Assembly (NCBI GenBank): GCA_965220385.1
Contig: OZ244825.1
Location: 323,143-387,142 of the forward strand
DNA: 64,000 bases
Source: Candidatus Poribacteria bacterium
GTDB lineage: Bacteria > Poribacteria > WGA-4E > PCPOR2b
Direction of reading: 5' to 3'
Shown here: positions 12,700 to 57,227 of the stretch, piece after piece
Position numbering within the stretch: the first letter of the stretch is position 1
Layout: each line of letters starts with the position of its first letter
The notes under the pieces: generated by a model
The model's database searches: none
What the model was told of the DNA's origin: nothing
What the model saw: only the letters and a program-made list of their open reading frames with translations
Position numbers and translations under genes: made by a program

Positions 12700-12790
12700 A
12701 ATGAACCAATGTACTTCTTACGCATTACGTTTCACGTTTTACTATTAATGAACCCATGGACTAATACACTAATGAACCAACATCTACCTC
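12700..12790 (+). repeat. Composite repeat: AATGAACC(A) modules plus a TTTCACG heptads unit. Related to 14236-14300.
   Basis: CCAATGAACCAATG...CGCATTACGTTTCACGTTTTACT...TAATGAACCCATGGACTAATACACTAATGAACCAA. Confidence 0.65.
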
Positions 12791-34703: not shown

Positions 34704-36146
34704 TTACTCCATAGCAATCGCAAAGAGCGTATTCCGACTCACGATATACAGCACACCGTCTTTTGCTACCGGGGTGGTATAAACGGCGCTCCCCATGTTG
34801 GTCTCAAAAATAAGCTCTTTCTCTTTGCCCGCTTTTAAGATGGCGAGATCTCCGTCCTCGTCTCCGATGTATACTTTCCCATCCGCCACGAATGTCGATC
34901 CCCAAATCGCAGCAAATGTGTCATACGTCCAATGATGTTCACCCGTATTCGCATCAAGGCAGTAGACGAAACCGCTCAGGTCTGCTATGTAGAGCAAGTC
35001 ATCCTCGATTGCTGCGGTAGACATTGTGCGATGGAAATTCTCGTCGCCCCGATGCCAGACCGCACCCGTCTCAGTGATGTCCCCTTCACCCGTTGCATCG
35101 ATCACCCAGAGGTGTCCAACGCCCTCACCGTGTTCTGGATCCTGTCCCACGCTGATATAAACCTTATCCTCCCAGATGACAGGGGTCGAAATGATGTTAT
35201 TGCGTGTCCCTCTCCCACCCAATTCCCACACTGAATCTTTGGGATTGCAGTCGAACTTCCAGATCAATTTCCCGGTCTCAGGCTCGAGGGAATAGATCCA
35301 ACCGTCGCCACCGGGAAAGATAGCTTGGGGTATGCCGTTGATTACCCCGTAGGCGGGGTTAGACCATTGACCGTGTAAGATGTTTTCGGCAGGAGAGGCA
35401 TCTTCCCAAACCAGTTCGCCGGTCGTCTTATTGAGCGCGATAAAGCTCGGCGCAAAAGGGGAAGGAATGTGCACATGTCCTTCATCAACGCCATTGCTCG
35501 TTTCTACAAAGAGCAAATCGCCTACACCAATCGGGGAACAGGTGGCGAGATTGTGCGGAAAAACCTCCAACTCCTCGATCATATCGTACTTCCAGATAAT
35601 GTCCCCATCAATTTCGCTGGTATCAGTTTCCTCCGTGAAAGGACCATCATTTTCACCGTCCATGAAGCCTTCGGTATCAACGCAGACAACTTCAGCGCGA
35701 TTGGAAACATAGTAGAGTCGATCGTCTTCGATGAAAGGTGTCGAACAGATACCCTGTTGGGGCCAATCGTTGACGCGTCCGGCAGGGAGTTTGGTGTGTG
35801 TGGATTGCCAGAGAAATTCTCCATCCGATTCACGGAATGCCATGATGACGCCACGATCGCCGGTAAGTTTCGGATTTCGTCTGCCTTGGTTGTTTGTCCC
35901 GACAAACACCTTGCCACCGATGAGGATAGGACCCGCATAAGTCTGAGAGCCTAAGGTCGCCGTCCATTTGATGTTTAGTCCAGTTTTCGCGTCCCATTTT
36001 ACCGGCAGATTCTTCTCATCGGAAACAAGGTTACGCGATGGTGTAAAGCCCCACATCGCCGTCTCAGCGAAGGCGGGTGTTCCCGATACTATTAGCACTG
36101 TTAAGAGAATGATAGCACCCGTTCCTATAATCTGTTGATATTTCAT
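34704..36146 (-). CDS. PQQ-repeat beta-propeller protein with signal peptide
   Basis: Signal peptide MKYQQIIGTGAIILLTVLIVSGTPAFA. Multiple W-containing propeller blades (DGEFLWQSTH, GDIIWKYDM, GELVWEDAS, GKLIWKFD, GEHHWTYD). Confidence 0.7.
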   Translation of the reverse strand: MKYQQIIGTGAIILLTVLIVSGTPAFAETAMWGFTPSRNLVSDEKNLPVKWDAKTGLNIKWTATLGSQTYAGPILIGGKVFVGTNNQGRRNPKLTGDRGVIMAFRESDGEFLWQSTHTKLPAGRVNDWPQQGICSTPFIEDDRLYYVSNRAEVVCVDTEGFMDGENDGPFTEETDTSEIDGDIIWKYDMIEELEVFPHNLATCSPIGVGDLLFVETSNGVDEGHVHIPSPFAPSFIALNKTTGELVWEDASPAENILHGQWSNPAYGVINGIPQAIFPGGDGWIYSLEPETGKLIWKFDCNPKDSVWELGGRGTRNNIISTPVIWEDKVYISVGQDPEHGEGVGHLWVIDATGEGDITETGAVWHRGDENFHRTMSTAAIEDDLLYIADLSGFVYCLDANTGEHHWTYDTFAAIWGSTFVADGKVYIGDEDGDLAILKAGKEKELIFETNMGSAVYTTPVAKDGVLYIVSRNTLFAIAME

Positions 36147-36408: not shown

Positions 36409-37182
36409 TTAAAAATTGTCTAACTGCGTTCGTGTGATTTCACTCAGTTTTCCGTCGTGAAGTCTGTATTTGTCATAGAGATCTGTACAATCGTGATCAG
36501 AATATGTTTCCAACACCTTTACACACCAAGCAAACAGGGTTCTGAGCGAAGCGCATGTATCGGGGCGAGATAGAACATGCTCAATGCCGATTTTATCCAA
36601 AATTGCTCCACCGTGTTCAATAGTATCAAAGTTGGAATACAGTCCTTCAAGTTTATCTTTGGGATGGCGGATTTCTTCTACATCACCTTCATAATCTGAT
36701 AAACAGGTGCCCAAGACCTCGTTAATTACTTGTGCGTCGGCGAAGTAGTACGCCTCAAGCATATTCACCAGAAAATGCACGGAGGCGCGATGCTTCAAAT
36801 CGTTTAATATCGTATCAAGTGCCGTTCGATAGCGTTCAAAGACCTCTGGCGCCTCATCTTTGCGGTCATACTCCAAATCATCGATTAAGAGAACAAAGTA
36901 GTAAGGATCATTTTTCAGATACCTTCTTGCCTTGAACCCAATTACCTCGTCTCTGTCCGGCATTTTCTTGCCGTTGCGAAGTGCTTTAAGTCTTTCCTCT
37001 GAAGTAATTGGGTCGCGTTGACCGACGCGCTGAATCACTTTAAAGTTGCAAGTCCCGGTTGCCCTTAGAGATCCGAATAATTCTGGCAGATACTGTCGTT
37101 CAGTTTTGCCGGTAACGATTAAGACGAAATGGAAATAAGCGTATCGCGGGTAGTCGGCAGGCTGTGTATCCTGTTCGGTCAT
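36409..37182 (-). CDS. DUF4276-like protein. Downstream partner of the AAA ATPase; candidate abortive-infection/defence effector.
   Basis: N-terminal FHFVLIVTGKTERQYLPELF resembles the hhVEGxTExxFV signature of DUF4276. Start overlaps the ATPase stop by 4 nt. Confidence 0.5.
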   Translation of the reverse strand: MTEQDTQPADYPRYAYFHFVLIVTGKTERQYLPELFGSLRATGTCNFKVIQRVGQRDPITSEERLKALRNGKKMPDRDEVIGFKARRYLKNDPYYFVLLIDDLEYDRKDEAPEVFERYRTALDTILNDLKHRASVHFLVNMLEAYYFADAQVINEVLGTCLSDYEGDVEEIRHPKDKLEGLYSNFDTIEHGGAILDKIGIEHVLSRPDTCASLRTLFAWCVKVLETYSDHDCTDLYDKYRLHDGKLSEITRTQLDNF

Positions 37183-38375
37183 TCGCCCTCCTCTTGAATT
37201 TCAGGTTTACTTTGGGGGGCAATGGCTTCAGCCATGTAGAGGGACCCTGTATCGTAGCTTTCCAACAAATCTTTAATATCTTCCATCTCACTGACTCGTG
37301 TCAAAACAGTCTGACCGGATTCATCCAGTCCTGTTGCCAAAATATCTTCTGGCTCAAACTGCCCAATCAAAACCGGGGAGTGTGTCGCGATGAAAACCTG
37401 TTTATTCCATTCCTTTGTGGCTAGCTTGACCGCTTCCGCAAACACAGAGATAGCGTAAGGGTGAAGCGAAGTCTCCGGCTCATCGAACAAGATGAGCAGG
37501 CCGCTTCCTTTTTCCTTAGCAAACAGTGCAGTTAGCAGAATAAGCATTTGTAATTGCCCTTCGGATTCACTTAATACTGGAATTGGATATTGCAGATTTT
37601 TTTGCACGAAGTTGGCGTAGACTGTGTTTGGCCCAGAGCGATCAAACACCAAATCTTTGAAATTGGGGAAACTCTTTCGCATGAAATTAATGATAGTTTC
37701 ATAACGCTGATCGATTGCAATTTTACCATGAATATTCTGCAAAACTGACCATAGATTCTCACCTTTCTCGTACAACGAGATATTCGTACCTGATTCTGAG
37801 CCGCGTTGTTTGAGCCCGGATAGGTCTATATAATGAGAATGGTAAAAATGGACAGAGTTGAGCAGATCTCGTAAGTTGAAAACGTCCGGCGGAATAAGTT
37901 CCGTTCCTTGCATATACTGAATCAAAGCAAGTTTTTCTGGAAAGGTCAACCGCGTCCGCACCGGAGGATTTTCTTCATGATAACAGAAATCAGCCGTATC
38001 ACTACTTATTCTTCGAAATATTGAGGGGACTTTTCTTTCTTTAGAATACAGAACTTCCCCTGCATAGGGTTGAATTTGTCCAACTGAAAATTCTAATAGG
38101 AGTACATATAGGGAAAGGGTTGTCTCCAATGTAATTGATATGTATTCCGGGCCATCAACGTCCTGTTGCAACATACCAAAACCGTTATTTCGCGTCCTAC
38201 CAGCTTCAGCAACGTCTCGGGAAACACAATCCCTAACGAACCGCATTGCTTCCAACAAAGTTGATTTCCCTGACCCATTCGGTCCAAACAGAACATTAAT
38301 TGGGCGCAGTTCAACTGAGACATCTGCCAATGATCTGAAATTTTTGACTTGTAAACGGGTTAATAGATTTGCCAT
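37179..38375 (-). CDS. ABC-type AAA ATPase (AAA_21/AAA_15-like, OLD/AbiLi/AriA-like N-terminus)
   Basis: LQVKNFRSLADVSVELRPINVLFGPNGSGKSTLLEAM Walker A. C-terminal Walker B/D-loop LILFDEPETSLHP...IATHSP. Confidence 0.75.
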   Translation of the reverse strand: MANLLTRLQVKNFRSLADVSVELRPINVLFGPNGSGKSTLLEAMRFVRDCVSRDVAEAGRTRNNGFGMLQQDVDGPEYISITLETTLSLYVLLLEFSVGQIQPYAGEVLYSKERKVPSIFRRISSDTADFCYHEENPPVRTRLTFPEKLALIQYMQGTELIPPDVFNLRDLLNSVHFYHSHYIDLSGLKQRGSESGTNISLYEKGENLWSVLQNIHGKIAIDQRYETIINFMRKSFPNFKDLVFDRSGPNTVYANFVQKNLQYPIPVLSESEGQLQMLILLTALFAKEKGSGLLILFDEPETSLHPYAISVFAEAVKLATKEWNKQVFIATHSPVLIGQFEPEDILATGLDESGQTVLTRVSEMEDIKDLLESYDTGSLYMAEAIAPQSKPEIQEEGE

Positions 38376-38384
38376 GACATCTCC

Positions 38385-40604
38385 TCAATTCCGCCAAACC
38401 TTCAGGTTATCGTAGTAGACCTCAGCAGGCGAATAGCCGTAGATCCCCGGACTCCCCTCCCGATTCGGCAGCGGATCTTCGACAGTAATCGTCCATGCCT
38501 CCGGCTCCGGCTCACCCCTTGCCCAAACCTTTCCCTTGACATGCGCCGTATCATCGACGATATCCACCGTCATTTTCATCCTATACCAGACGTTCGGCTC
38601 CCACTTGAAGTCAATCCACTCTGCCATTCGGAGATCGGATCGCCATGAAAGCACCTGAAGCCGTTGGTGATTGCCCTGCATCTCAAGCGTGTAGCGATGG
38701 GCGATGAGTCCCATGTCTGGCATATTCCGCTTCGGCTTGGTTCCCAGCAAATCGACCTGAACGGTGTAATCCTTCATGTTCGGGGGACCGATATAGACAT
38801 TAGAGCGGTGTAACCCACGGCGGGCAGGCGGTTTGACGAGAATTTTGTTCCCATCCACCTCACGGACGACGAATCGGTTTGTTGCACGGACCCAGTGCGG
38901 TGGACTCTTCCCTTCCTCTATCGACTCAAAATCTTCCTGCCACGGTAACGGCGGAATCACGCGAACCCGTGCGGAGTTGCTTATATCCCCAATCTTTGCC
39001 AACACCGTTCCGGCTTGACCGACTGGACTCGATTCAAGAGTCAACTTGCCGCTGTCATCAATTACCCCTGACAACCCATTGAGCGACCATTCGACATCCT
39101 TTTTACCGACGCTCCCTCTGCCTTCATCGGTAAATGCCTGTACACTAAATTGGATACTGTCTCCCGGTTCGGCTAAGACTTCAGTAGGGGTAATCTGTAT
39201 CGATGCGGGCGCATCGGTAGACATCATCATACCAGCACGGTCTGGTACAGAGACAGATTGGCTTGAGGCAGAAGATCCCTGAACCCCTAAGCAGTAAAGC
39301 CCTTCCTCGGTGGTAAAGTAAACTCGACCGTCAGCGATGGCGGGTGAACCGTAAATTTCCGCGTAGTGGCCGGGTTCCCTTTCAATCTGTGTTGTGCTGA
39401 GCGTTTTGCATTCGCGCTCGCTCGGTTGCAGGATGTGGAAGTGTCCGTTGACTTCGGTGACATAGATTTTACCGTCCGCGACAACAGGCGATCCCTTGCC
39501 CACTGTGCCGAGGCTATGTGTCCAATGCACCTCCCCGGTTTCGCCATCAAGACAGTGTAAATTCGCCGAGCTATCCACAACATAAAGCCGACCGTCAGCT
39601 ATTGCTGGAGAGCTATAACCCGCCTCTATGCCGTTAACCCGCCAGAGTTCGTGCGTCTTGGTAATATCCCCCGTACCCGATCCATCGATGCAGACAACCC
39701 GCCCCATCACCGTCGTGTCGGTGTTCTCCCGATTGTGGCTTGCGTAGACCCGTGTGCCATCTACAACCACCGACGCATTGAGCGGGCCCTGACTGACTTG
39801 GAATCCCCAAACTTTCTCACCCGTTTGCATGTCCATAGCATACACATGACCGTCCGAGTTGCCGTCGATTAACAACCGACGCCCATTTATCTCTGCGACG
39901 ACAGAGACAGGATAGGTCGTGTCCTTCGGAGGACCACCGGGCTTCGCTGTCCACACCACCTCGCCGGTCTTTTTGTCGAAGGCAAAATAACGATGGCGCA
40001 TCGCGGCGTGGTCTCCCCAACTAGTGTTGAGGAAACTAAGAATCACAAGGTCCCCATCCACAACCGGTGTAACGGTGCGCCCACCATAGCCCGTGAATCG
40101 ACCATATTCCTCCGTCAAAGAGTGTGACCAGACAACCTTTCCGTCCTTGTCGAAACAGGCAAACACGCCGCTGATAGTGTGGGCATAAATGTATCCCGTT
40201 TCCCTATCGCCAGCTAAACTGGTCCAGCCCAATCGGTTAAAAGGGATGGTGCTGTGAAAGACGTTAAATCGATGTTCCCAGAGCATATCTCCCGACTCTG
40301 CATCAAAACACGCAACCCGTTCCTGTTCAGTGATGTCCATTCCAACGCGCCCGATGACATAAACCCGACTGTTCAGAACGATTGGCGTCGAACGCCCCAT
40401 AAAATCGGCTTTCCAAAGTAAGTTTTCACCCTCCAGCGACCAGTTTGAAATTAACCCAGTTTCTGAGGACGAACCGGTCTGATTTGGACCCCGCCAACTT
40501 GCCCAATCTGAGGCAAATGCGCCGTTAAAGCCTATCAAGCAAACACACAGATTTGCTCCTATCAACAGATACAGAATTGTTTTAAGCGTAACCCGATTTC
40601 GCAT
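38385..40604 (-). CDS. PQQ-repeat beta-propeller fused to a C-terminal DUF1080 (LamG-like jelly-roll, 3-keto-disaccharide hydrolase-like) domain. Secreted.
   Basis: N-terminal signal and DWASWRGPNQTGSSSETG motif. Multiple propeller blades. C-terminal ~200 aa ending YYDNLKVWRN, matching the DUF1080 C-terminal FDNhkV pattern. Confidence 0.7.
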   Translation of the reverse strand: MRNRVTLKTILYLLIGANLCVCLIGFNGAFASDWASWRGPNQTGSSSETGLISNWSLEGENLLWKADFMGRSTPIVLNSRVYVIGRVGMDITEQERVACFDAESGDMLWEHRFNVFHSTIPFNRLGWTSLAGDRETGYIYAHTISGVFACFDKDGKVVWSHSLTEEYGRFTGYGGRTVTPVVDGDLVILSFLNTSWGDHAAMRHRYFAFDKKTGEVVWTAKPGGPPKDTTYPVSVVAEINGRRLLIDGNSDGHVYAMDMQTGEKVWGFQVSQGPLNASVVVDGTRVYASHNRENTDTTVMGRVVCIDGSGTGDITKTHELWRVNGIEAGYSSPAIADGRLYVVDSSANLHCLDGETGEVHWTHSLGTVGKGSPVVADGKIYVTEVNGHFHILQPSERECKTLSTTQIEREPGHYAEIYGSPAIADGRVYFTTEEGLYCLGVQGSSASSQSVSVPDRAGMMMSTDAPASIQITPTEVLAEPGDSIQFSVQAFTDEGRGSVGKKDVEWSLNGLSGVIDDSGKLTLESSPVGQAGTVLAKIGDISNSARVRVIPPLPWQEDFESIEEGKSPPHWVRATNRFVVREVDGNKILVKPPARRGLHRSNVYIGPPNMKDYTVQVDLLGTKPKRNMPDMGLIAHRYTLEMQGNHQRLQVLSWRSDLRMAEWIDFKWEPNVWYRMKMTVDIVDDTAHVKGKVWARGEPEPEAWTITVEDPLPNREGSPGIYGYSPAEVYYDNLKVWRN

Positions 40605-47779: not shown

Positions 47780-48112
47780 ATGGCTGGCGAGGCTTTAGGT
47801 TTAGTCGAAACGAGAGGGCTTGTTGGAAGTATCGAAGCCGCTGACGCGATGGTCAAAGCCGCAAATGTTCAACTTATCGGTTATGAAAAGATTGGTGGCG
47901 GATATGTCACAGTCATGGTTCGTGGTGATGTCGGGGCTGTCAAAGCTGCCACAGATGCCGGGGCAGAAGCGGCCGCACGAGTCGGAGAGGTCGTTTCCGT
48001 CCACGTTATCCCACGGCCACACGCAGATGTTGAATCGGTTTTACCCGTACAAGAACAGGCCGAAGATAGTACGCTGACAATTGATATCGCTAACGCCGAC
48101 GCAGCGAATTGA
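47780..48112 (+). CDS. Bacterial microcompartment shell protein, BMC-H (PduA/EutM-like hexamer)
   Basis: Near-canonical Pfam00936 sequence: [77 protein letters not shown]. Confidence 0.92.
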
Positions 48113-48133
48113 TGGAGTTAGGAAAGATAGCGG

Positions 48134-48871
48134 ATGAATGACAAGGCACTCATTGAACTGGTCACTCATAAAGTGCTTGAACAATTGGAGCAGGTTGCTT
48201 TGAATCCCGATGCAATCGGGAGCGAAGAACCCTGCGGTGGCTGCGCCCTGCGAACCTGTGAGGCTGGAAATCGTGCCTGTGACGTTGTCGTTCAACAGCA
48301 GAAAATTCCCGTTGGTGTCTCAGCACGACATGCACACGTAACCCAAGAACACTTGGAGATTCTGTACGGCGAAGGACATCAATTGACTGTCCACGCCCCC
48401 CTATACCAGCCCGAAGCATTCGCGGCGAAGGAGACATTAACCGTTGTTGGGCGACGGATGCAAGCAATCGAAGGGCTCCGGATTCTCGGTCCCGTCAGAG
48501 ATTATTCTCAAGTCGAGCTTGCCCAGACCGATGCCATTCGCTTGGGACTGAATCCACCCATTCGCGATTCGGGAGATCTCGCCGGTTCAGAGTCGATTGT
48601 ATTGGTCGGTCCCAAAGGATCTGTTCACCTACAAGAAGGTGCAATCTGTGCGACGCGGCATATTCACATGACCCCTCAAGATGCGGAAAACTGGAGGATA
48701 CGTGAAGGGGATCTGTTAACAGTGCGTATTCCCGGCGAGCGAGCACTGACCTTTGAAAACATCCATCCGAAAATATCATCAAGTTATGTGCCGCAGATGC
48801 ACCTTGACACGGATGACGCTAACGCTGCCGGTTTACAGGGAGGAGAAGGCGTCGAGCTGCTGAGAGGTTAG
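48134..48871 (+). CDS. pduL: PduL-type phosphotransacylase (phosphate propanoyl/acetyltransferase) with an N-terminal encapsulation-peptide-like amphipathic helix
   Basis: Two PduL repeats with IPVGVSARHAHVT and ICATRHIHMTPQDA motifs. C-terminal MHLDTDDANAAGL. Residues 4-20 (ALIELVTHKVLEQLEQV) form an amphipathic helix, then a Gly/Pro-rich linker. Confidence 0.85.
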   Translation: MNDKALIELVTHKVLEQLEQVALNPDAIGSEEPCGGCALRTCEAGNRACDVVVQQQKIPVGVSARHAHVTQEHLEILYGEGHQLTVHAPLYQPEAFAAKETLTVVGRRMQAIEGLRILGPVRDYSQVELAQTDAIRLGLNPPIRDSGDLAGSESIVLVGPKGSVHLQEGAICATRHIHMTPQDAENWRIREGDLLTVRIPGERALTFENIHPKISSSYVPQMHLDTDDANAAGLQGGEGVELLRG

Positions 48872-48881
48872 GGGTATCTAA

Positions 48882-49643
48882 GTGAGGTTCAGTCCAGAAA
48901 TCATTCGGCGGATTGAAGCAGAAGTTGCGAAAGTGCTTGAACAACAAGGAACCACCTTGACTGCTCCCCAATCCGATAAACGGGTTCTGGCGATATTCGA
49001 TGCCGCTCAAATTGATCTCACGGTTCCGCTGGCACAACTCGATAAATGCATCCAAGGTGGTTATGCTGTTACAGCGATTGTGTCAGATATAGCGGCTAAG
49101 CTCTTGGACATCTCCCGTATCCGGTCCGCGTGCGGCAATGAACAAGTTTTCATAGCGAGTGAAATTACGAACCTTCAACCCTTTACAGAAGGGTTCTCCG
49201 CAATCGTTGTTCCCACGCTATCTTATGCGATAGCAGCGAAGTTAAGTTTGGGCTTGGCAGATACGCCGTGCGCTTATCTTGTGTTCCAAGCGTTGGTTCG
49301 CGGAAATAGGGTGCTCGCAACAGTTGATGGCTTTGGGGGCTCAGACCAATCTGAAATCCCATCCGAGATCTCAAAGTTGGGGCAAGATTACATCGCAACG
49401 TTGTCGGACTTCGGTGTTCAATTTGTTGCCATGGATCGACTTGCTGAAGCGATTTTAAGCGACGGTATACATCGTTTTAATCAGGCTAACCCAAGGGGTG
49501 GGCGAAACATTATCACCGCTTCGGTAATCGCCGAACTTCCACCAGATGCGCGCGAATTTCGTTACGCGAATCCGGCGATTATCACGCCGCTTGCACGAGA
49601 TTTGGCAGCTCGAAAGGGAATTCGGCTCGTGGCGATGGACTAA
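48882..49643 (+). CDS. Hypothetical protein co-transcribed with BMC-H/PduL (GTG start inferred from the ORF track)
   Basis: 253 aa ORF directly after pduL. alpha/beta-like composition (VLATVDGFGG, GIRLVAMD). No recognised motif. Confidence 0.4.
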   Translation: MRFSPEIIRRIEAEVAKVLEQQGTTLTAPQSDKRVLAIFDAAQIDLTVPLAQLDKCIQGGYAVTAIVSDIAAKLLDISRIRSACGNEQVFIASEITNLQPFTEGFSAIVVPTLSYAIAAKLSLGLADTPCAYLVFQALVRGNRVLATVDGFGGSDQSEIPSEISKLGQDYIATLSDFGVQFVAMDRLAEAILSDGIHRFNQANPRGGRNIITASVIAELPPDAREFRYANPAIITPLARDLAARKGIRLVAMD

Positions 49644-49917
49644 AAAATCAATATCTGGTATCGCTTTTACCACAGCTGCGTATCGCTATTGCTACGGTTT
49701 TCGCTCTACAGATGCCGTGTCCTTTGCTATTATAGACAACTCAGCGGTTAAATCAACGATGGCATCTAACTTGCTACTGATACACATTACGAAATCTATT
49801 GGTGGATAACGTCAAGTTCGCTCATGTCGGCTGATTGGCATGAGCGAACTCCTTAGTATCATGTGATCGAGTCAAGAAAATCCGCTTTGTTAAATGCACC
49901 CAAAAGGAGGGGTTGCA

Positions 49918-51573
49918 ATGAAATTCCAGGTTCCGTTCTCCATATGCCTACTGCTGACAATTCTGCTACTGATGCTCACGCCCCATACTGTTCCAGCACA
50001 GTATGATTACGACTACTTCTCAGATCGACTCAGTCGCGAACACCGGGACGCAGGCGATGTTGAGGACTGGATCGAGCGCGGCAATGCGACCGTCACCGCC
50101 AGCCCTCGTTTTGAAAGTGGGGTCCGCCTGGCAGCGTGGGCAAGTGACTCTAAGAACGCGGAGAGCTACGAATTTGCAATAGCCAGTGCAATCTATCTCT
50201 TCGAAATTCCGCGACGGGCTCAGTACGTTGAGATTTTGGTGCGCTACCGAGGCGAACCACACCAAGCTGATTTTGATCACGAGGACATCGCAGGGCGTGT
50301 TTGGATTCGTAATACCAAACGTGAATATTCTCGCAGGCAGTATGATAATAACGACGAAGAAGAAACCCTGTACGGCGATACCTTCTTTTTGCGTGCAAAA
50401 CGTCGCTCAGAGACCATAAAAGTGGCGACAGCAGGACGTGTCGAGAATGGCATCCTTGAAATGCACATTGTTGCCGAAAATGGTGAGCAGCTTGATATCG
50501 AATATGTTGATGTTGCAACCTATCAAAGACAGCCGGATGTTCGTGTTATACACCGCTATGCTCGGGATTACCACTGGAAGCCTTGGAATCGATATACCTA
50601 TCTCTATTTTTATGATGGTCCCTTCTACTACTGTACAGACTTAGGTTACTATATTCGATGGAGCTATCCAGTTTATGACCATCACTACGTCACGATTCGT
50701 CGTACCTATGGCACCTATCTCCACGACTACTATCGTCGTTACCCGCGTCGGTACCACCGAAATTCCTACTATCACGCAGGTGTCCATGTTGTTCATAAAT
50801 CTCCTAAGACGCAACGGTTGAATCGCTGGACGAATGCGCATGAAACTACCCGCCGCGAATATTCGCGGAGCCGATTGTCGGTGACTACATCCAAAACGAA
50901 CAGAGCTAATGTGCGTACCCGGGTGCGCTCCCTTATCACAGAACACCGTCAGACACCGGTTCGTACAGATAGAGTTATCCAGCAGTCGGCGGTTTCTCGA
51001 AAACGAGGCCTTCGTGACACAAGACGTGAACCAAACACAGCCATAGAGCAGCAGCGCAATAACCAGCGATCTTCGCGTGATGTATCCTCGCGACCTTACC
51101 GTGCAACCCAGCAGATCCAAAAACGTAAACGCTTAAGTACTGTCGAGAGGGACCCCCGTTCTAATGTACAATCTCGTAATGTCCCGCCTCAAACCCGCCA
51201 GTATGATCGCTATCGGTTTGCGCCAAAGAATCAGCGTTCATCGGACAATGACAATGAGGTGTCGACCCGGTCAAACGCAGAACGACGAACGCGCCTTTAT
51301 AACCGAACCCAGTCTTCGAGAAGTAGACTGAGTACACCACCTTCACGCAGCCGATCCTCAACCGTCAAACAGAAGACAGAAACACGCAGCCGGGTTAAGC
51401 AATCCAGGTCTCGTTCATCTACGTCTCGTTCATCTACCGCGACTACTCCACGTACGCAAAGACCGACAACTAAGCAAACGACGTCGAGTTCAAGCAGCAA
51501 AGATGATGATGATGAAAAACGGGAACGTAGTCGCACTACCACAAGAACCCAAACACGTAGTCGAAGAAAATAG
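49918..51573 (+). CDS. Secreted protein with a Tyr/Arg-rich core and a ~250 aa Arg/Ser/Thr-rich low-complexity basic tail. Start refined to MKFQVPF.
   Basis: Strong RBS AAAAGGAGGGG before the ATG at 49918. Signal peptide MKFQVPFSICLLLTILLLMLTPHTVPAQ. Residues ~330-550 are >50% R/S/T/Q/K, ending in poly-Ser and DDDDEK. Rho-independent terminator downstream. Confidence 0.6.
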   Translation: MKFQVPFSICLLLTILLLMLTPHTVPAQYDYDYFSDRLSREHRDAGDVEDWIERGNATVTASPRFESGVRLAAWASDSKNAESYEFAIASAIYLFEIPRRAQYVEILVRYRGEPHQADFDHEDIAGRVWIRNTKREYSRRQYDNNDEEETLYGDTFFLRAKRRSETIKVATAGRVENGILEMHIVAENGEQLDIEYVDVATYQRQPDVRVIHRYARDYHWKPWNRYTYLYFYDGPFYYCTDLGYYIRWSYPVYDHHYVTIRRTYGTYLHDYYRRYPRRYHRNSYYHAGVHVVHKSPKTQRLNRWTNAHETTRREYSRSRLSVTTSKTNRANVRTRVRSLITEHRQTPVRTDRVIQQSAVSRKRGLRDTRREPNTAIEQQRNNQRSSRDVSSRPYRATQQIQKRKRLSTVERDPRSNVQSRNVPPQTRQYDRYRFAPKNQRSSDNDNEVSTRSNAERRTRLYNRTQSSRSRLSTPPSRSRSSTVKQKTETRSRVKQSRSRSSTSRSSTATTPRTQRPTTKQTTSSSSSKDDDDEKRERSRTTTRTQTRSRRK

Positions 51574-51592: not shown

Positions 51593-51636
51593 TAAACAGT
51601 TAGGGAGGAGTGCGTTCCTTAACTGTTTTTTTTGTT
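51593..51636 (+). terminator. Rho-independent terminator after the RS-rich secreted protein gene
   Basis: AACAGTTAGGGAGG...CCTTAACTGTT stem followed by TTTTTTTT. Confidence 0.7.
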
Positions 51637-51644
51637 GACAAGAC

Positions 51645-52241
51645 TTGCGCGTTTTGCTATCATACGCCTTGGAAAAGAGGTGTAGGAATTTGACCGGATC
51701 TCTAGTGAAGTTATTGGGGTTTGCGCTGGTCGCCCTCGCTCTATTTTTATTTTCGCGAGGACAACTCAGTGCTGCGCAGCCAGATGAGAATCTGCGCCTT
51801 GTGTCGCCAGTAGGTGCCATAGCCCGTTCTGCAGTTGTGCCCGGTTGGGGGCAGTTTCACGCCCGTAACCGTTTGCTGGGTGCTACATCCTTCGTAGGAA
51901 CAAGCGGATTCCTTGTTGGTGCGTTGATTACTCACCAATCCTTCCGAGATGTCTACGACAATCAGTATGTGCCCGTTGCTTCACAAGACCCTAACTCTCC
52001 GGAAGCGCTTTTTCAATACAATCGAGCGAATCAACGCTACAAGTTGCGACAGTTCTTTCTCTTCGCTGCAGCGGGGGTATGGGCCTATAGCTTGATTGAT
52101 TCCTATGTTGGAGCAAATCTGTACAATGCAGAGGCAAAGGCGAACCAAATTATTGATGAGATGAAGCAGATTGAAGAGTTGAACTTACAGCTTGACGTAA
52201 CTCCAACACAACTTCAACTGGATATCGTCAAATTCTTTTGA
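51645..52241 (+). CDS. Membrane protein with a PGWGQ motif (DUF5683-like); start uncertain
   Basis: Hydrophobic segment LLGFALVALALFLF. VVPGWGQFHARN motif. Second TM segment TSFVGTSGFLVGALI. Confidence 0.4.
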   Translation: MRVLLSYALEKRCRNLTGSLVKLLGFALVALALFLFSRGQLSAAQPDENLRLVSPVGAIARSAVVPGWGQFHARNRLLGATSFVGTSGFLVGALITHQSFRDVYDNQYVPVASQDPNSPEALFQYNRANQRYKLRQFFLFAAAGVWAYSLIDSYVGANLYNAEAKANQIIDEMKQIEELNLQLDVTPTQLQLDIVKFF

Positions 52242-52866: not shown

Positions 52867-53333
52867 TCTCTCAATGCGGTCAAACAACCTCTCTTCTTGA
52901 TGATCCTTTTTCACCATTTGATGCAGATTTTATTCTCGAAATGGGGACCACGGTCTCATTGACTCGCGCCACAGGCTTTTCGGCACGACCTTTTAACGGC
53001 CTGAGCCTTTACCAAATCTTGGGCTCTGCAATTTTACAGTTGTCGACATTGACGTGGCTGCAACCGTAGTACTGATCCAACCGGTATTTAACCTGCCTCT
53101 ATTTTTCACCAGCCTTTTTCGATGTTTTTTTGTCCGGCAATGTTAGTCATAACCAAAAGTAACAGCGATCAACACTTCTGCTCAAAATCTCGGAATGACT
53201 GATCTTCTAACTGAACTCTCGCTGCACTTCGTAAAACACTTTCTAAGACTGGGGAAAAGTCGCTTCCGTGTGACGGATTCGACCCATTTTTGCGCTAACT
53301 CTGGTACATCACAATTATTTTAAGAAAAAAGTC

Positions 53334-53362
53334 TTGACAGAAAATTGCAGAAGTGTTATCTT
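53334..53362 (+). promoter_or_regulatory. Candidate sigma70 promoter (TTGACA-17 nt-TATCTT) driving a ~530 nt leader ahead of the large lipoprotein/OMP gene
   Basis: TTGACA at 53334-53339. 17-nt spacer. TATCTT at 53357-53362. No sizeable ORF between it and 53893. Confidence 0.35.
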
Positions 53363-53892
53363 AGAGATTACTTTTTTTCAGAAGCAGAACTTCATTGAGA
53401 AAAAAAGTATCAACTGAATGGCGGCAGCAACACAGATGGGAAACGTGAATACCGTCCAAGTCAAGCATGTGGATCATCCCGCTTACCGAATGAGCAATGG
53501 CTTAATCTGAATCAGTACTTAATTGAATGTTAGTTGTTACATGCCAACTGCTTTCAGATGCTTGTATCCCCCGAAATTGGGCTACAAGCCTTAACCTGAT
53601 GCCGCTGGAACCTAACGCCAGCAGAGAAAACGTAAAGACCGGTTTTGCACCGAATCTGGGTAATTAAATAGTTGCGTATTGCTAATGAATCCTTGCAAAA
53701 GGAGGTTGCGATATGTTCCACCACTGACGCAAGTTAAAATAGGAGATGGATTGGTAGACGGTCACAAACTCCGAAGCCGTGATTGATTCGACTCTCCTAT
53801 TTCGACTTGATGCACGGATGAACGTTATTATGGACGTTTTATATCCTCACTTTTATGTCAAATGTAATTTATGATTTCCTCAAGGAGGCAAA

Positions 53893-56800
53893 TGAAAGTA
53901 ATGAAGTTTTTCAAACGATCACCTGATTTTCTGTTGATTATGGCGGGGCTGATCGGTTGTTTCGTGCTCTACGGGTGCGGCGCAACAAGCCTTGGTCCAC
54001 AGGAACCGCTCCTACCGACGGTTGAAGGACAAGCTAACTTCTCCGACCGGTTCCAATTGGAAGAAGAACCCCAGTTCTTCTATGACCTGTTTGGTAGGGA
54101 ACTTCTCGAAGGTAACGAAGTCTACAATTATCGCGAGGAGAAACAATTCGACCAAAACGGAGAACTGATTGTCGGTTGGACCGGTCAGCTTGATAGCGAA
54201 AGATTTTCCGCCCAGTTGGACCGTCAGATTCTAACCGAAGATAATTTCCGTGGCAGATTTACGCAGTTCGTCATTGGGGACGATATGCGTATTAAGCCTC
54301 AAACCTTATTCCCTAACCGATATGTCATCTACAAAACCGAATTTGATGGCTTCCGATGGGACATCTCCTTCTCGCAAGAACGTCACCTCTTCACACTACT
54401 GAACTCTCGTATTTCTAACCCGGTGAAGCTGTCTGACGCGGCGGCAAACCTCGCACCAACACTCGGGCGACGTAACGGTCTGAGCGATGATGTTGGGCTA
54501 CGCCATATTGAGAACGCACGTTTAATCGGATTTCGTGCACAAGGGTTGCTCGGTGACGTGTTCCGTGTAGGTCTCACCTATGTCAATCTTCACAAAGAAC
54601 ACCCGGAACGAGTTGAAAACCCAATCTTCGGCGGATCTGTTGCCAATACACCCCCAGAGCGTATCGTTGTTGTCTTCCGTGATGATTCTCCAGAAGATAA
54701 CAATTATGGTGGCTTAGCACATGACCTCGAAAGAGATTTCCAAGCATCGAAGATTCAAGGTGGTGTCGGTGCCGCTGTCAAGGGCATGAAAGTCCACGTT
54801 ACCACGCAAGCGCTTTCCGGCTCCTCGGCTGATGGTCCAGACCGTCCGGCTGGTCCCGAGAGGACGCAGACTATCTCAGTCTTTATCGACGACATCGTCG
54901 CGGTCGAGGGCAGTGCTGACCCGATTGAATCCAGAGACGGACAATGGAAAATTGTCGAAGGGTTCAATAAGATGCAGTACGTCTTGGACCTCACCTCTGA
55001 GGAACTACCCAATGGGCCCATTGATCCACGAACAGTGAAGTCAGTTGAGTTCGAAATGACGGTCGCTGGGGACTATAACATCGTCGTCATCGGATTTAGT
55101 GAGGCAAACAAATCGGACGATCCACTTGCAGCTGAATGGATCAAAACCGAAGACGGTCATATCGAGTCGCCGTATCGTGATGTGCTTCAAGCGCCCGGCA
55201 ACTATGGCCGATCAGATCATTACACCGAGAACAGAAGCAGCTTGCTGCATAACCCAAGCGACTGGGAAAATGAAGGCGCATCGCGTACGATTCGATATCG
55301 CTACGGTGCGGCGCGGGCTGGTGTGCTGTATGGTGTTGACCTGGAAGGAACCCTGTTTAATACCTTTATCCGAGCACACTACTCGATTAATGGAAAATTT
55401 AAACAGTATCCAACCATTCCCAGAGACCAAATCGGCTTCAGTCGACTGAATCCTGAAATCGAAGGTTCGAACGTCACTATCGACGAAACAGAGACGACAG
55501 AGGACGGATTGCCGAACCCCACCTTTGGAGTTCCGCTTGATGCCAACGGCATCCCCACATACTCTGAAACGGAAGGGGAACGGTTTGAAGCCAAGTTGAA
55601 TGGTGATCCGAATGATGACGGAGAGATGGGACGCGAAACTGCGTGGTTTGTCAACCTGAGACAACGTTACGGCAAACTCTTCCTTGAAGGAACCCTCTAC
55701 CATATCGATCCGGGTTATACCACTACATACTATAACTTCGGTGCAAACGACGCAAGAGATGCAACCTACTCTCTTGACCGAACACCTGAATCCGGTGCTG
55801 AAGTGCTTCCCTTCGATGAGATTAACTACGCACTCATTGAAGATGATGATGATGACGACGACTGGCCAGACAGCATCGACTTTGACGGCGTTCTGCCGCA
55901 AGCCGATGACCGTGACCAAAACGGTATCCTCGACTTCCAAGAAGACTTCCTCATCTTTGAGGCGGATCCTCCGGTTTTTGAAGATCTCGTTGACCTCAAC
56001 AACAACGGCGTTGTCGACTCATTGGAAGATGACTTCGAGCCACAGTATGAATACGGTATTAACCGTGAAGGATATCATATCACTGCCAGCTACGACCTAC
56101 TCGATAACATGACCCTCAAACTGGGTTGGTTAAAAGAGGGTGAAGTCTCCAGTCAGCGGCAGAATAATTCAAAATATGCGCATCTCACCTTCCAACGTGA
56201 CGTGCCAGATTTCGGAACGGTTCTATTCCAGAATCGGTTTGTCCGTGTTGACGATGATATTCCAGATTATTCGATTACCCTGCGGCCAGGCGAGTTAGAT
56301 GCCACACAGGAATCTGATTTTCTCGATTTCTTCAAAACACGCGTCAATGTGACAAGTCTTCAGTTCCTCTACAGTGCAATTCCAAACCTAACGCTTGAAA
56401 CCAAGTTCTTGGTCGACTGGCGGAAACAGTTGGGACTTGATGAAGAGGATGCTATTGCGCTCGATTTCCCACAGGATGATCCGAGCCAAGAGAAGGACGA
56501 TCACGTTGATTTCATGGTGCCCGACGAACAGGTCCGAGCCGACGGCGACCGGAAGTCATACCCCTTCTATCCAGATCACGGGCTTAACCCGCTGGATCCA
56601 GAAGACCTCGGTTTGATCTATGATCCAGAAAACTGGATTCCACGTCGGTTCCAAGAAAAGACCGTCCGAAATCAGATCACAATTCTCAGAGCCAAATATG
56701 AAATCCCGTTGGGTGACCTGCCCGGCGTGGACAGAATTGGGGAAGACTTAACGTTGACGCCAATGGCAAAATATATTTGGACTCGCGCATTTGATCATAC

Positions 56801-57227
56801 GGCGGCTAATATCGAAGAGGGTAGCTATCTCAATCCGTTGGATCCAACAAAATTTGTGCCTGACGATCCAGAGGTTATTGAGTATCTCCGATTTAACAAA
56901 CGTAGCCGTGAAGATGTCCTCGGTGTGCGTTTGGATTATCAGTTTACTCAGAGAATGAATATCCTCGGCGGTTTTCAGTATCGCAAATTCACCAACCGTG
57001 ATCAAACTATCAAAGACTATCTAGCGACTCCAGCGTTTGAGGAAGCCGATATTCCAATCCTCTTCCGTCCAGACCTCCGTACGCGGATCTTTGAAGTTCA
57101 GTCAATCAGCCGAGGTGAATGGCAAGGTTTCAATATCGTCATTCTCGCCGGTTTCAGAAGAACTACCATCTTGCTTGACCACACGACAAGTAACACGACC
57201 TTCGTCCGAGCGATGATGGGCTTCTAA
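53893..57227 (+). CDS. Large (about 1110 aa) lipoprotein or outer-membrane protein with acidic Ca-binding-like Dx[DN]xDG motifs and a C-terminal Phe
   Basis: AAGGAGG RBS before the ATG at 53893. Signal with lipobox VLYGCG. Poly-Asp run EDDDDDDDWPD. TSP3-like motifs DRDQNGILD and DLNNNGVVD. C-terminal ...TFVRAMMGF-COOH resembles an OMP beta-barrel terminal signature. Confidence 0.6.

What the first reader, a model, noticed from the sequence alone, without database searches (positions are those of the whole stretch)
49918..51573. Secreted protein with a Tyr/Arg-rich core and a ~250 aa Arg/Ser/Thr-rich disordered tail
After a clear signal peptide and a globular-looking first half, the protein has a Tyr-rich segment (YHWKPWNRYTYLYFYDGPFYYCTDLGYYIRWSYPVYDHHYVTIRRTYGTYLHDYYRRYPRRYHRNSYYH). 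This is followed by about 250 residues dominated by R, S, T and Q (RSRLSTPPSRSRSSTVKQKTETRSRVKQSRSRSSTSRSSTATTPRTQRPTTKQTTSSSSSKDDDDEK...). The tail resembles a eukaryotic RS domain or a silaffin/polyanion-binding tail. Low-complexity tails of this kind are rare in bacterial secreted proteins. It could bind eDNA, polyphosphate or acidic polysaccharide, or mediate condensate-like assembly. A strong RBS and a clean terminator argue that it is a real gene.
Basis: seen in the sequence. Interest (0 to 1): 0.55.

Follow-up and report, generated by a model that had tools for sequence, protein, structure and literature searches.

The report
Exported protein with long cationic tail
This is a real, expressed gene for an exported protein of an undescribed family in Poribacteria, Planctomycetota and Lentisphaerae: a sugar-binding-like beta-sandwich, a nearly invariant tyrosine-rich block and a long, disordered, positively charged tail that probably sticks to negatively charged polymers. 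Its biochemical function has not been tested.

Summary
Window 49918-51573 (+) encodes a 551-aa protein with its own promoter-like site, an AAGGAGG ribosome-binding site and a strong terminator. It has a cleavable-looking signal peptide and a beta-sandwich (aa 57-202) resembling carbohydrate-binding modules. Next come a highly conserved Tyr/Trp-rich block (216-300), two basic helices (301-345) and a roughly 200-aa disordered tail. From residue 301 the composition is R 22%, S 16%, T 14%, with net charge +44.

The tail is coding, not a frameshift artefact. Differences from a close homologue fall 33/27/89 by codon position, and all indels are multiples of 3.

More than 250 homologues keep the architecture, in 93 clusters at 50% identity. 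All 176 members analysed have net-positive tails. None matches Pfam, NCBIfam or PDB sequences.

The locus is the published poribacterial "BMC-A region". The positional orthologue, POR3G_00343, was labelled "RhoGEF (COG5422)". I find no support for that label. Published sponge metatranscriptomes show that orthologue at 1.13 times housekeeping level.

Best reading, by inference only: an envelope or extracellular protein that docks on a glycan through its folded half and binds polyanions through its tail. It is an uncharacterised family of moderate interest.

The parts
49815..49850 (+). Perfect 12-bp inverted repeat (AGTTCGCTCATG / CATGAGCGAACT, 12-nt spacer), 68 nt upstream of the start codon. 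Possible operator or 5' hairpin; it overlaps the -35 of the promoter-like site.
   Evidence: repeat. (-23.9 kcal/mol, z -5.6, no T run). In L016 the arms are conserved while the spacer differs.
49835..49862 (+). Sigma-70-like promoter candidate (TTGGCA-16-TATCAT, 10 of 12).
   Evidence: This is a consensus match only. The published transcript level of the positional orthologue differs from both neighbours, which fits a separate transcription unit.
49904..49910 (+). Shine-Dalgarno sequence AAGGAGG, 7 nt before ATG 49918.
49918..51573 (+). Coding sequence, 551 aa plus stop (TAG 51571-51573).
   Evidence: More than 250 homologues.
49918..49998 (+). Signal peptide, aa 1-27 (MKFQVPFSICLLLTILLLMLTPHTVPA | QYDYDY...).
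   Evidence: Hydrophobic N-terminus in 178 of 180 family members. Only 3 have a second TM-like stretch. N-termini are listed. The cleavage site is inferred from the A-x-A-type ends and the conserved mature start.
50086..50523 (+). Beta-sandwich (jelly-roll, CBM-like) core, aa 57-202, inside the conserved N-domain (aa 28-215, nt 49999-50562).
50563..50817 (+). Aromatic (Tyr/Trp/His)-rich conserved module, aa 216-300. Core is P.W.RYTYLYFYDGPFYY (core nt 50590-50631).
   Evidence: Invariant residues. Conserved in distant clades as P.Y.YTY.YYY.GP.Y.P. AF2 cannot model it, pLDDT 23-45.
50818..50952 (+). Conserved basic helical segment, aa 301-345 (LNRW..HETTRR.YSRSRLS ... VR....HR).
   Evidence: W304, E309, R312, Y315, R317 and R319 are invariant. 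Predicted helices 306-320 and 326-345, pLDDT 52-66.
50953..51570 (+). Disordered polycationic R/S/T/Q-rich tail, aa 346-551. It contains a conserved helix motif RSNAERR.RLYNR (nt 51268-51306), an acidic run DDDDEK (nt 51502-51519) and a basic C-terminus RTTTRTQTRSRRK (nt 51532-51570).
   Evidence: pLDDT 30-40, except about 57 at residues 451-460. Composition and charge. Coding-frame test. RS-dipeptide enrichment.
51408..51437 (+). Perfect 15-nt tandem duplication inside the tail (encodes SRSST SRSST), a trace of in-frame slippage.
   Evidence: The in-frame indels of 6, 6 and 15 nt against L016 lie in the tail.
51594..51636 (+). Intrinsic terminator: 14-bp stem, 7-nt loop, T run.
   Evidence: (-18.5 kcal/mol, z -4.7).

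Best explanation
A Sec-exported envelope or extracellular protein that binds polymers in a modular way.

After signal-peptide cleavage, the folded half would dock on a specific partner, most plausibly a polysaccharide. The folded half is a jelly-roll beta-sandwich resembling a carbohydrate-binding module, followed by a nearly invariant Tyr/Trp-rich block.

The roughly 200-250-aa disordered Arg/Ser/Thr-rich tail (net +44) would bind polyanions through many weak electrostatic contacts. Candidates are acidic or sulfated exopolysaccharide, LPS, peptidoglycan and eDNA. The protein would thereby glue or organise material at the cell surface. Tail length evolves by in-frame slippage, while its positive charge is kept.

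Shown here: the gene is real and the tail is coding. The architecture is conserved, the signal-like N-terminus is present, the tail is predicted disordered and the cationic character is universal. Transcription is shown only by published data for the positional orthologue.

Inferred: export, the identity of the ligand, and binding itself.
For: - Architecture and disorder.
- Tail constraint: third-position excess (33/27/89) and in-frame indels only. 47 non-synonymous against 69 synonymous codon changes in the tail, compared with 20 against 43 in the N-domain.
- Charge: all 176 family members have net-positive tails. The median is +39.5 in Poribacteria and +24.5 in distant clusters. Tail length runs from 87 to 514 aa and composition shifts from R/S/T to R/P/A/G. 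Charge, not sequence, is therefore what is kept.
- Export: signal-like N-terminus in 178 of 180 members, and no further TM segment in all but 3. The residues right after the hydrophobic segment are acidic, so the predicted topology is N-in, C-out.
- Fold: the best matches are glycan-binding modules. These include CBM70 (hyaluronan), a porphyran CBM, an alginate CBM, and CBM61, CBM4, CBM16 and CBM35.
- Aromatic block: an invariant Tyr/Trp/Pro/Gly pattern, as expected for sugar-stacking or assembly surfaces.
- Context: in Poribacteria the gene sits among envelope genes. These are a DUF5683 membrane protein, a lipoprotein, in some genomes a Wzz/GNVR exopolysaccharide co-polymerase, an OMP-like protein of about 1100 aa, and ExbB/ExbD. 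One distant homologue is followed by poly-gamma-glutamate capsule genes (PGA_cap).
- Expression: the positional orthologue is transcribed at 1.13 times the housekeeping mean in sponge metatranscriptomes (PMC5087111 Supplementary Data S1).
Against: - There is no binding data of any kind.
- AF2 does not fold the aromatic block or aa 28-56 (pLDDT < 50).
- Cardin-Weintraub heparin-binding motifs are not enriched in the tail (3 against 2.2 +/- 1.3).
- Outside Poribacteria there is no conserved gene neighbourhood to point at a ligand.
- Moving a +44 tail through Sec against the membrane potential is costly, so the predicted topology needs experimental proof.
Confidence: 0.4

Rival explanations
1. 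Structural envelope protein. The folded half associates with the outer membrane or peptidoglycan, and the extended basic tail spans or fills the periplasm. This would resemble the spacers of TonB and TolA, or OM-PG tethers. It would be a housekeeping role rather than adhesion to foreign polymers.
For: - The family is very well conserved across Poribacteria. Among the 120 best homologues the commonest residue averages about 81% per position in the N-domain.
- The gene is conserved in position across all Poribacteria examined: the window, L001, L002, L016 and the single-cell genomes 3G and 4E.
- The positional orthologue is expressed at housekeeping level.
- Distant clades have Pro/Arg-rich tails (P 15-24%), like TonB spacers.
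- ExbB/ExbD and a giant OMP-like protein lie in the same region.
- PMC5087111 predicted an outer-membrane location for the orthologue.
Against: - The domain order is the reverse of TonB and TolA, and there is no C-terminal globular domain.
- No OmpA, LysM, SPOR or SLH peptidoglycan-binding domain is detected.
- No beta-barrel is predicted, and there is no C-terminal aromatic residue.
- Tail length varies from about 20 to 565 aa across the family. That fits poorly with a fixed periplasmic span.
- Only 93 clusters at 50% identity exist among 1.84 billion representatives. It is not a general solution for diderm envelopes.
Confidence: 0.2
2. Self-assembling matrix or coat protein. The Tyr-rich block and the Arg-rich tail act as mutual 'stickers' through cation-pi contacts, or Tyr residues become cross-linked. 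The result would be a gel, coacervate or coat around the cell. The analogy is with the Ser/Lys/Arg-rich, phosphorylated CotB/CotG modules of the Bacillus spore coat, or with Tyr-plus-cation marine adhesives.
For: - Tyr is 24% in aa 216-300 and Arg 22% in the tail.
- RS/SR dipeptides are enriched.
- A poly-Ser plus acidic run precedes a basic terminus in 98% of poribacterial members. This charge-block pattern favours self-association.
- AF2 cannot fold the invariant aromatic block as a monomer, which would fit folding on assembly.
- There is a bacterial precedent for S/K/R-rich structural modules (PMC7821199).
Against: - No CotH-type kinase or other secreted kinase is found among the window's ORFs.
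- The aromatic block is a fixed sequence motif rather than a repetitive low-complexity sticker region.
- Short-tailed members exist (P0141 and P0142, 323-328 aa).
- No assembly data exist.
Confidence: 0.12
3. Functional component of the poribacterial 'BMC-A' system, meaning the microcompartment/PduL pathway or the ExbB-ExbD transport module next to it, as implied by its inclusion in that published gene group.
For: Synteny is conserved in Poribacteria: BMC, PduL, a 250-aa protein, this gene, DUF5683, and onward to ExbB, ExbD, ExbD. PMC5087111 treats the region as one functional unit.
Against: - The gene has its own promoter-like site and terminator.
- The downstream gene has its own strong promoter-like site at 51635-51663.
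- In L002 an IS element separates the gene from the PduL group.
- Published transcript levels differ sharply from both neighbours, 1.13 against 0.26 and 0.56 times housekeeping.
- Homologues in Planctomycetota, in a MAG close to the Lentisphaerae homologue, and in MAGs of unknown phylum have no BMC, PduL or ExbBD neighbours.
- A signal peptide is incompatible with a cytoplasmic BMC cargo.
Confidence: 0.08
4. Membrane-anchored cytoplasmic nucleic-acid-binding protein (histone H1/Hc1-like or RS-domain-like). The N-terminal hydrophobic segment would be an uncleaved anchor and the basic tail would stay inside the cell.
For: The positive-inside rule favours keeping a +44 segment in the cytoplasm. 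The Arg/Ser-rich composition resembles RNA- and DNA-binding tails.
Against: - The charges that flank the hydrophobic segment are the ones that set topology. They are K/R before it and an acidic stretch (DYDYDYFSD...E..D..D.ED) after it, which predicts N-in, C-out.
- The c-region ends in A-x-A-type motifs throughout the family.
- A beta-sandwich with CBM-like matches is typical of extracytoplasmic proteins.
Confidence: 0.05
5. RhoGEF-type signalling protein. This is the published annotation of the positional orthologue POR3G_00343 (COG5422), described as 'outer membrane-predicted RhoGEF' in PMC5087111.
For: IMG assigned COG5422 to POR3G_00343 and POR4CII_00260 (PMC3909097 Table S2; PMC5087111).
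Against: - No Pfam family is matched even at E <= 10, including the RhoGEF/DH domain. Ten distant members also have no Pfam hit.
- The SAG 4E orthologue carries no COG.
- The predicted fold is a beta-sandwich, whereas DH domains are all-helical (the DH fold is from general knowledge).
- The hit is most simply explained by the Ser/Arg-rich low-complexity tail. That explanation is inference.
Confidence: 0.02
6. Artefact: the tail results from a frameshift or sequencing error, or is non-coding.
For: The low-complexity 3' half contains a 15-nt tandem repeat.
Against: - Codon-position pattern 33/27/89 and indels only in multiples of 3.
- The C-terminal motifs (DDDD ... R..T.RRR) stay in frame in 120 homologues of 50-90% identity.
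- The other two + frames carry 5 and 23 stops.
Confidence: 0.01

Closest known systems
POR3G_00343 / POR4CII_00260 / or2322, in the 'BMC group A' region of Poribacteria single-cell genomes (Kamke et al. 2014, PMC3909097; Jahn et al. 2016, PMC5087111)
   Same: Same position in the same conserved gene order: BMC shell, PduL, a 735-bp hypothetical gene, this gene, two hypothetical genes, an optional Wzz/GNVR gene, a large hypothetical gene, then ExbB, ExbD, ExbD. Similar length, 1596 bp against 1656 bp. It is almost certainly the orthologue.
   Different: The literature lists it only as a hypothetical protein with a COG5422 'RhoGEF' label and a predicted outer-membrane location. Neither the architecture described here nor the wider family was reported. 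I could not retrieve its sequence, so orthology rests on synteny and length.
Basic low-complexity polyanion-binding regions of bacterial surface adhesins: mycobacterial HBHA (Lys/Ala/Pro-rich C-terminal tail) and Neisseria NHBA (Arg-rich region). Recalled from general knowledge; NHBA is also mentioned in PMC6477034.
   Same: A surface or secreted protein with a folded part plus a disordered, strongly basic segment that binds sulfated glycans or DNA electrostatically. This is the mechanism proposed here.
   Different: No sequence relationship. The tail here is much longer (about 200-250 aa), Arg/Ser/Thr-rich rather than Lys/Ala/Pro-rich, and not enriched in Cardin-Weintraub motifs. Binding is untested.
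Carbohydrate-binding modules with a beta-jelly-roll fold (CBM70 4d0q, CBM61 2xom, CBM4, CBM16, CBM35, and porphyran- and alginate-binding CBMs)
   Different: Only 5-15% identity, and no Pfam CBM family is matched. The protein has no catalytic partner domain. The ligand site is not identifiable from a medium-confidence model.
[quoted passage not shown]
   Same: A bacterial, extracytoplasmic, structural protein with a long Ser- and basic-residue-rich disordered module.
   Different: Those are tandem repeats phosphorylated by the CotH kinase in a spore former. Here there is no repeat unit beyond one 15-nt duplication, no CotH in the window, and the organism is a diderm non-spore-former.
Eukaryotic RS domains of SR proteins, and diatom silaffins
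   Same: Arg/Ser richness and RS-dipeptide enrichment, 31 against 17.6 expected. Predicted disorder.
   Different: There is no RRM, and the protein is exported rather than nuclear. Silaffins are Lys-rich with modified lysines, whereas this tail has K 5% and R 22%. The resemblance is compositional only.

Membership tests
Any Pfam-A or NCBIfam family | Significant match to a curated profile | tested here: not met
   Pfam gives 0 families at E <= 10. NCBIfam gives only a 7-bit low-complexity match at E 1.3. Ten distant members have no Pfam hit. Precomputed Pfam is '-' for all 120 listed homologues.
RhoGEF (COG5422 / Dbl-homology domain), the published label of the orthologue | A DH (RhoGEF, PF00621) catalytic domain, all-helical | tested here: not met
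   No Pfam hit at E <= 10. The AF2 model shows a beta-sandwich plus disorder.
RhoGEF (COG5422 / Dbl-homology domain) | Cytoplasmic protein acting on small Rho-family GTPases | tested here: not met
   An N-terminal signal-like segment is conserved in 178 of 180 members. The presence of a GTPase partner was not tested.
Carbohydrate-binding module (jelly-roll CBM) | Beta-sandwich jelly-roll fold | tested here: inconclusive
Carbohydrate-binding module (jelly-roll CBM) | Sequence membership in a CAZy/Pfam CBM family | tested here: not met
   No Pfam match. The PDB sequence-profile search returned only a low-complexity hit at E 0.03.
Carbohydrate-binding module (jelly-roll CBM) | Demonstrated glycan binding | not testable with these tools
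   Needs glycan arrays or affinity gels with the recombinant N-domain.
Heparin/polyanion-binding adhesins (HBHA / NHBA type) | Surface-exposed, strongly basic low-complexity region | tested here: met
   Tail net charge is +44 here and positive in 176 of 176 members. The signal peptide is inferred. Surface exposure itself is not shown.
Heparin/polyanion-binding adhesins (HBHA / NHBA type) | Sequence homology, or enrichment of XBBXBX / XBBBXXBX motifs | tested here: not met
   No homologue with such an annotation was found. Motifs number 3 against 2.2 +/- 1.3 in shuffles.
Eukaryotic SR-protein RS domain | Runs of RS/SR dipeptides | tested here: met
   31 RS+SR dipeptides against 17.6 +/- 3.6 in shuffles, p = 0.0002.
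Eukaryotic SR-protein RS domain | Association with RRM domain(s) and an intracellular location | tested here: not met
   No RRM is detected, and a signal peptide is present.
Silaffin-like biomineralisation peptides | Lys-rich (KXXK) segments with Ser, cut at RXL sites | tested here: not met
   The tail has K 5% against R 22%. The family also occurs in planktonic Poribacteria (a TARA contig, L001) and in Planctomycetota and Lentisphaerae MAGs.
CotB/CotG-type SKR modules | Tandem Ser/Lys/Arg repeats with a CotH kinase partner | tested here: not met
   The only repeat is one 15-nt duplication. No CotH domain is found in the window's ORFs. The rest of the genome was not searched.
TonB / TolA-type periplasm-spanning proteins | N-terminal anchor, extended charged or Pro-rich spacer, C-terminal globular domain | tested here: not met
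   The order here is signal, then globular domain, then spacer. No C-terminal domain is present (pLDDT 30-40 to the end). No TonB_C or TolA Pfam hit.

The most novel reading that the evidence does not exclude
A family of exported proteins, seen so far in Poribacteria, Planctomycetota and Lentisphaerae, acts as an extracellular 'sticker-and-spacer' scaffold. The invariant Tyr-rich block and the RS-rich polycationic tail would drive coacervation with anionic polysaccharide or eDNA. The result would be a condensate-like coat around the cell. That would be a bacterial, extracellular counterpart of eukaryotic Tyr/Arg-driven phase separation.
Probability: 0.1. Interest if true: 0.75.

Novelty: new variant of a known kind. 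Interest (0 to 1): 0.42.

Why it matters
Poribacteria and many of the Planctomycetota and Lentisphaerae that carry this family are uncultured, and how their envelopes meet their surroundings (sponge matrix, marine polysaccharides) is poorly known.

This gene is conserved across all the Poribacteria examined here. Published data show its positional orthologue transcribed at housekeeping level. It has no curated family, and its only functional label in the literature (RhoGEF) appears wrong.

Defining the family gives a concrete candidate for an envelope or matrix organiser or adhesin in these phyla. The defining parts are the signal peptide, the CBM-like sandwich, the invariant aromatic block and the expandable cationic tail. 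The family is also a natural case of selection acting on the charge of a tail rather than on its sequence. The work also removes a misleading 'eukaryote-like signalling' annotation from the much-discussed BMC-A region.

Tried and rejected
Curated libraries and PDB:
- Pfam, NCBIfam and PDB sequence searches returned nothing usable.

Taxonomy of distant members:
- The search for related loci with a 28-sequence diverse alignment failed because no stretch was conserved enough. A narrower alignment found only 5 genome loci, in Planctomycetota and Lentisphaerae MAGs.
- The search for homologous proteins with the diverse profile was swamped by word-sharing candidates and returned only 8 hits.
- The listing of cluster members gave no taxon names or IMG ids. 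As a result the phyla of several distant clades are unknown, and the sequence identity to POR3G_00343 could not be checked.

Structure:
- The AlphaFold-database Foldseek library was unavailable.

Genomic context:
- Synteny outside Poribacteria showed no recurring neighbour.
- I looked for a Wzz/GNVR gene in the window. It is absent.
- I looked for a CotH-type kinase in the window. None was found.

RNA and literature:
- The Rfam scan of the window returned nothing.
- Literature searches for DUF5683 or for this protein type in Poribacteria or Planctomycetes found nothing relevant.

Weak or uninformative tests:
- Cardin-Weintraub motif enrichment was not significant.
- The Uversky charge-hydropathy plot also places the folded domain on the 'disordered' side, so it does not discriminate.

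Rejected readings: frameshift artefact, RhoGEF, silaffin, BMC cargo.
Full report
**1. The observation**

The window holds an ORF at 49894..51573 on the + strand. AAGGAGG sits at 49904-49910, 7 nt upstream, and the closest homologues start MKFQ.... The product is 551 aa.

Composition by segment:

| Residues | Character |
|---|---|
| 1-27 | hydrophobic, signal-like |
| 28-215 | net charge -10 |
| 216-300 | Y 24%, R 13%, H 9% |
| 301-551 | R 22%, S 16%, T 14%, Q 8%, net +44 |

The last 250 residues of 19 other long ORFs of the window have net charge from -23 to +10 and 2-9% Arg, so the tail is a real outlier. RS+SR dipeptides number 31, against 17.6 +/- 3.6 in composition-preserving shuffles.

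A promoter-like site lies at 49835-49862 and a terminator-like hairpin at 51594-51628, followed by a T run. The hairpin folds at -18.5 kcal/mol with z = -4.7. Directly after it the downstream gene has its own near-consensus promoter-like site at 51635-51663. The gene therefore looks monocistronic.

**2. Is the tail real coding sequence?**

Yes. I aligned the gene to the closest homologue for which I fetched DNA (L016, encoding P0001, 89% identical to the first 311 aa). Differences in the tail fall 33/27/89 on codon positions 1/2/3. All indels are 3, 6, 6 or 15 nt. The two alternative + frames of the tail carry 5 and 23 stops.

Purifying selection is somewhat weaker in the tail than in the N-domain. 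The tail has 47 non-synonymous against 69 synonymous codon changes, and the N-domain 20 against 43. A perfect 15-nt tandem duplication at 51408-51437, together with the in-frame indels, shows that the tail changes length by slippage.

**3. Homologues**

A search with aa 1-311 found 252 proteins. The 120 listed are 441-545 aa long and 54-90% identical. They have no precomputed Pfam domain, and where a name exists it is "hypothetical protein [Candidatus Poribacteria bacterium]".

In the alignment the N-domain and the Tyr-rich block are the best conserved parts. Invariant residues include W51, E53, R54, G55, the run Y226 T227 Y228 Y230 F231 Y232 D233 G234 P235, W248, Y250 and P251.

Downstream conserved islands are:
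- a basic segment, LNRW..HETTRR.YSRSRLS...VR....HR (aa 301-345);
- the motif RSNAERR.RLYNR (aa 451-463);
- a poly-Ser/Asp run (DDDD, aa 529-532);
- a basic C-terminus (R..T.RRR).

An exhaustive phmmer search of 1.84 billion representatives with aa 28-321 found 93 clusters at 50% identity with E <= 1e-3.

The distant members are 30-45% identical and mostly 390-811 aa long. Nearly all of the 57 longer ones examined have a signal-like N-terminus. All 57 have the N-domain, the aromatic motif (consensus P.Y.YTY.YYY.GP.Y.P) and a low-complexity basic tail. The tail is R/S/T-rich or R/P/A/G-rich. It usually ends in a basic cluster.

All 176 family members analysed have net-positive tails. The median is +39.5 in Poribacteria and +24.5 elsewhere. 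A few members have very short tails of about 20-60 aa (P0141, P0142, P0169).

A genome scan with the distant clade located members in Planctomycetota MAGs and one Lentisphaerae MAG. The phyla of the other clades could not be determined.

**4. Structure**

AlphaFold2 with a 74-sequence alignment gives a beta-sandwich at aa 57-202 with pLDDT 65-88. Confidence is low for aa 21-56 and for the aromatic block (23-45). Confidence is moderate for helices 306-345 (52-66). It is 30-40 for the rest of the tail, apart from a short helix at 453-462.

This places the domain among jelly-roll, mostly glycan-binding sandwiches. Scores this low do not establish a function. No Pfam, NCBIfam or PDB sequence relative exists.

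**5. Genomic and literature context**

In the window and in three other poribacterial contigs the gene order is: BMC shell, PduL, a 244-257-aa protein, this gene, a DUF5683 membrane protein, a roughly 190-aa lipoprotein, an optional Wzz/GNVR co-polymerase, an OMP-like protein of about 1100 aa, then CarboxypepD_reg-ExbB. Two ExbD genes and a sigma-54 response regulator follow in L016, and the window also has the response regulator.

This is the published "BMC group A / BMC-A" region of Poribacteria. Table S2 of Kamke et al. 2014 lists the same order for single-cell genomes 3G, 4CII and 4E (PMC3909097). The gene in our position (POR3G_00343, POR4CII_00260, or2322) is a "hypothetical protein". 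In 3G and 4CII it carries COG5422 "RhoGEF". Jahn et al. [quoted passage not shown]

I find no support for a RhoGEF. There is no Pfam hit at E <= 10, the predicted fold is a beta-sandwich, and the protein has a signal peptide. The COG hit is most simply a low-complexity artefact of the Ser/Arg-rich tail, which is my inference.

The same paper's Supplementary Data give transcript evidence. IMG gene 2265142948 (1596 bp) averages 882.6 FPKM in three Xestospongia testudinaria metatranscriptomes. That is 1.13 times the housekeeping mean. The upstream neighbour stands at 0.26 times, the downstream neighbour at 0.56 times and the BMC shell gene at 1.34 times.

The level differs from both neighbours. 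This agrees with the promoter and terminator signals, and with an IS element inserted between the PduL group and this gene in L002. All point to an independent transcription unit.

Outside Poribacteria no neighbour recurs. One homologue precedes PGA_cap capsule genes. A functional tie to the microcompartment or to ExbBD is therefore not supported beyond phylum-level synteny.

**6. Mechanism**

Shown here:
- a real gene, whose positional orthologue is transcribed in published data;
- a conserved signal-like N-terminus, with acidic residues after the hydrophobic segment, which predicts N-in, C-out topology;
- a folded sandwich;
- an invariant aromatic block;
- a disordered tail whose positive charge is conserved while its sequence and length are not.

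Inferred: the protein is exported. Its folded half docks on a specific partner, probably a glycan given the fold matches and the aromatic block. The tail binds polyanions multivalently.

I give this reading about 0.4. I cannot say whether the target is the cell's own envelope or exopolysaccharide, or foreign polymers such as sponge or algal sulfated glycans. Poribacterial glycan degradation is known from the literature and was not tested here.

Rivals:

| Reading | Confidence |
|---|---|
| Structural periplasm or envelope protein | 0.2 |
| Self-assembling Tyr/Arg matrix or coat (precedent: CotB/CotG S/K/R modules, PMC7821199) | 0.12 |
| Component of the BMC-A system | 0.08 |
| Membrane-anchored cytoplasmic nucleic-acid binder | 0.05 |
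| RhoGEF | 0.02 |
| Artefact | 0.01 |

**7. Comparison with known families, and novelty**

By mechanism the nearest analogues are adhesins with basic disordered regions (HBHA, NHBA; recalled from general knowledge). By fold they are jelly-roll CBMs. By composition they are RS domains and CotB/CotG modules. The protein is a member of none of these; the membership table gives the tests.

The gene itself has appeared in two papers, but only as an unstudied or mislabelled hypothetical protein. The family is undescribed in Pfam, NCBIfam and the PDB. I rate it a new variant of a known kind: an exported modular binding protein with a cationic disordered tail. Interest is moderate (0.42). It is conserved, expressed and unusual in composition. 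There is no functional evidence, and it occurs in uncultured organisms.

Noticed in passing
window 49815-49850: A perfect 12-bp inverted repeat with a 12-nt spacer lies upstream of the gene (-23.9 kcal/mol as RNA, no T run). It overlaps the -35 of the promoter-like site. In L016 the arms are conserved while the spacer differs, which suggests an operator or a regulatory hairpin.
   Followed up: partly
window 52867-53870: A 1-kb stretch with no ORF over 60 aa and lower GC (0.42 against 0.49 for the window). It lies exactly where other Poribacteria (L001, L002, SAG 3G) carry a Wzz/GNVR (COG3206) exopolysaccharide co-polymerase gene. tblastn finds no remnant of that gene. L016 has a similar unannotated gap between the same two genes, and SAG 4E also lacks the Wzz/GNVR gene.
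   Followed up: partly
window 53871-57227 (+): A 1118-aa protein with no Pfam hit, a lipoprotein-like N-terminus (LIGCFVLYGC), an internal EDDDDDDDW run and a C-terminal Phe. It is 67% identical to its counterpart in L002. It is probably a large outer-membrane protein upstream of CarboxypepD_reg-ExbB. The literature lists it only as hypothetical (POR3G_00339).
   Followed up: partly
window 51645-52241 (+): DUF5683 membrane protein. Its real start is probably TTG 51690, not 51645. tblastn with the L002 orthologue aligns from 51687, and AGAGGTG lies 7 nt upstream. The listed ORF start at 51645 lies inside a near-consensus promoter-like site (51635-51663, 11 of 12 with an extended TG). No paper in the held library discusses DUF5683 in bacteria.
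   Followed up: partly
window 47780-49643 (+): A BMC-H shell protein, PduL and a conserved 253-aa protein without Pfam hit. This is the core of the published poribacterial 'BMC-A' group. There is only one shell gene and no signature enzyme other than PduL. In L002 an IS (DDE_Tnp_1) separates this trio from the downstream genes.
   Followed up: partly
window 36409-38375 (-): An AAA_21/AAA_15 (OLD/ABC-like) ATPase gene (37179-38375) overlaps a DUF4276 gene (36409-37182) by 4 nt. This looks like a two-gene defence-type module. A DNA methylase-domain protein lies nearby (31231-32682).
   Followed up: no
window 12784-14016, 14336-15613, 22927-24090, 34704-36146, 38385-40604 (all -): Five paralogous PQQ_2/BamB-like beta-propeller proteins lie within 28 kb. 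They are interspersed with alcohol and aldehyde dehydrogenases and TPP enzymes.
   Followed up: no
window 15642-18137 (-): A RecQ-family helicase (DEAD, Helicase_C, RecQ_Zn_bind, RQC, HRDC) carries an N-terminal DuOB (dual OB) domain, an unusual fusion.
   Followed up: no
L015 12015-13397: A distant family member (P0145) is followed directly by two PGA_cap (poly-gamma-glutamate capsule) genes. This is the only case seen where a polyanion-synthesis gene sits next to a family member outside Poribacteria.
   Followed up: no
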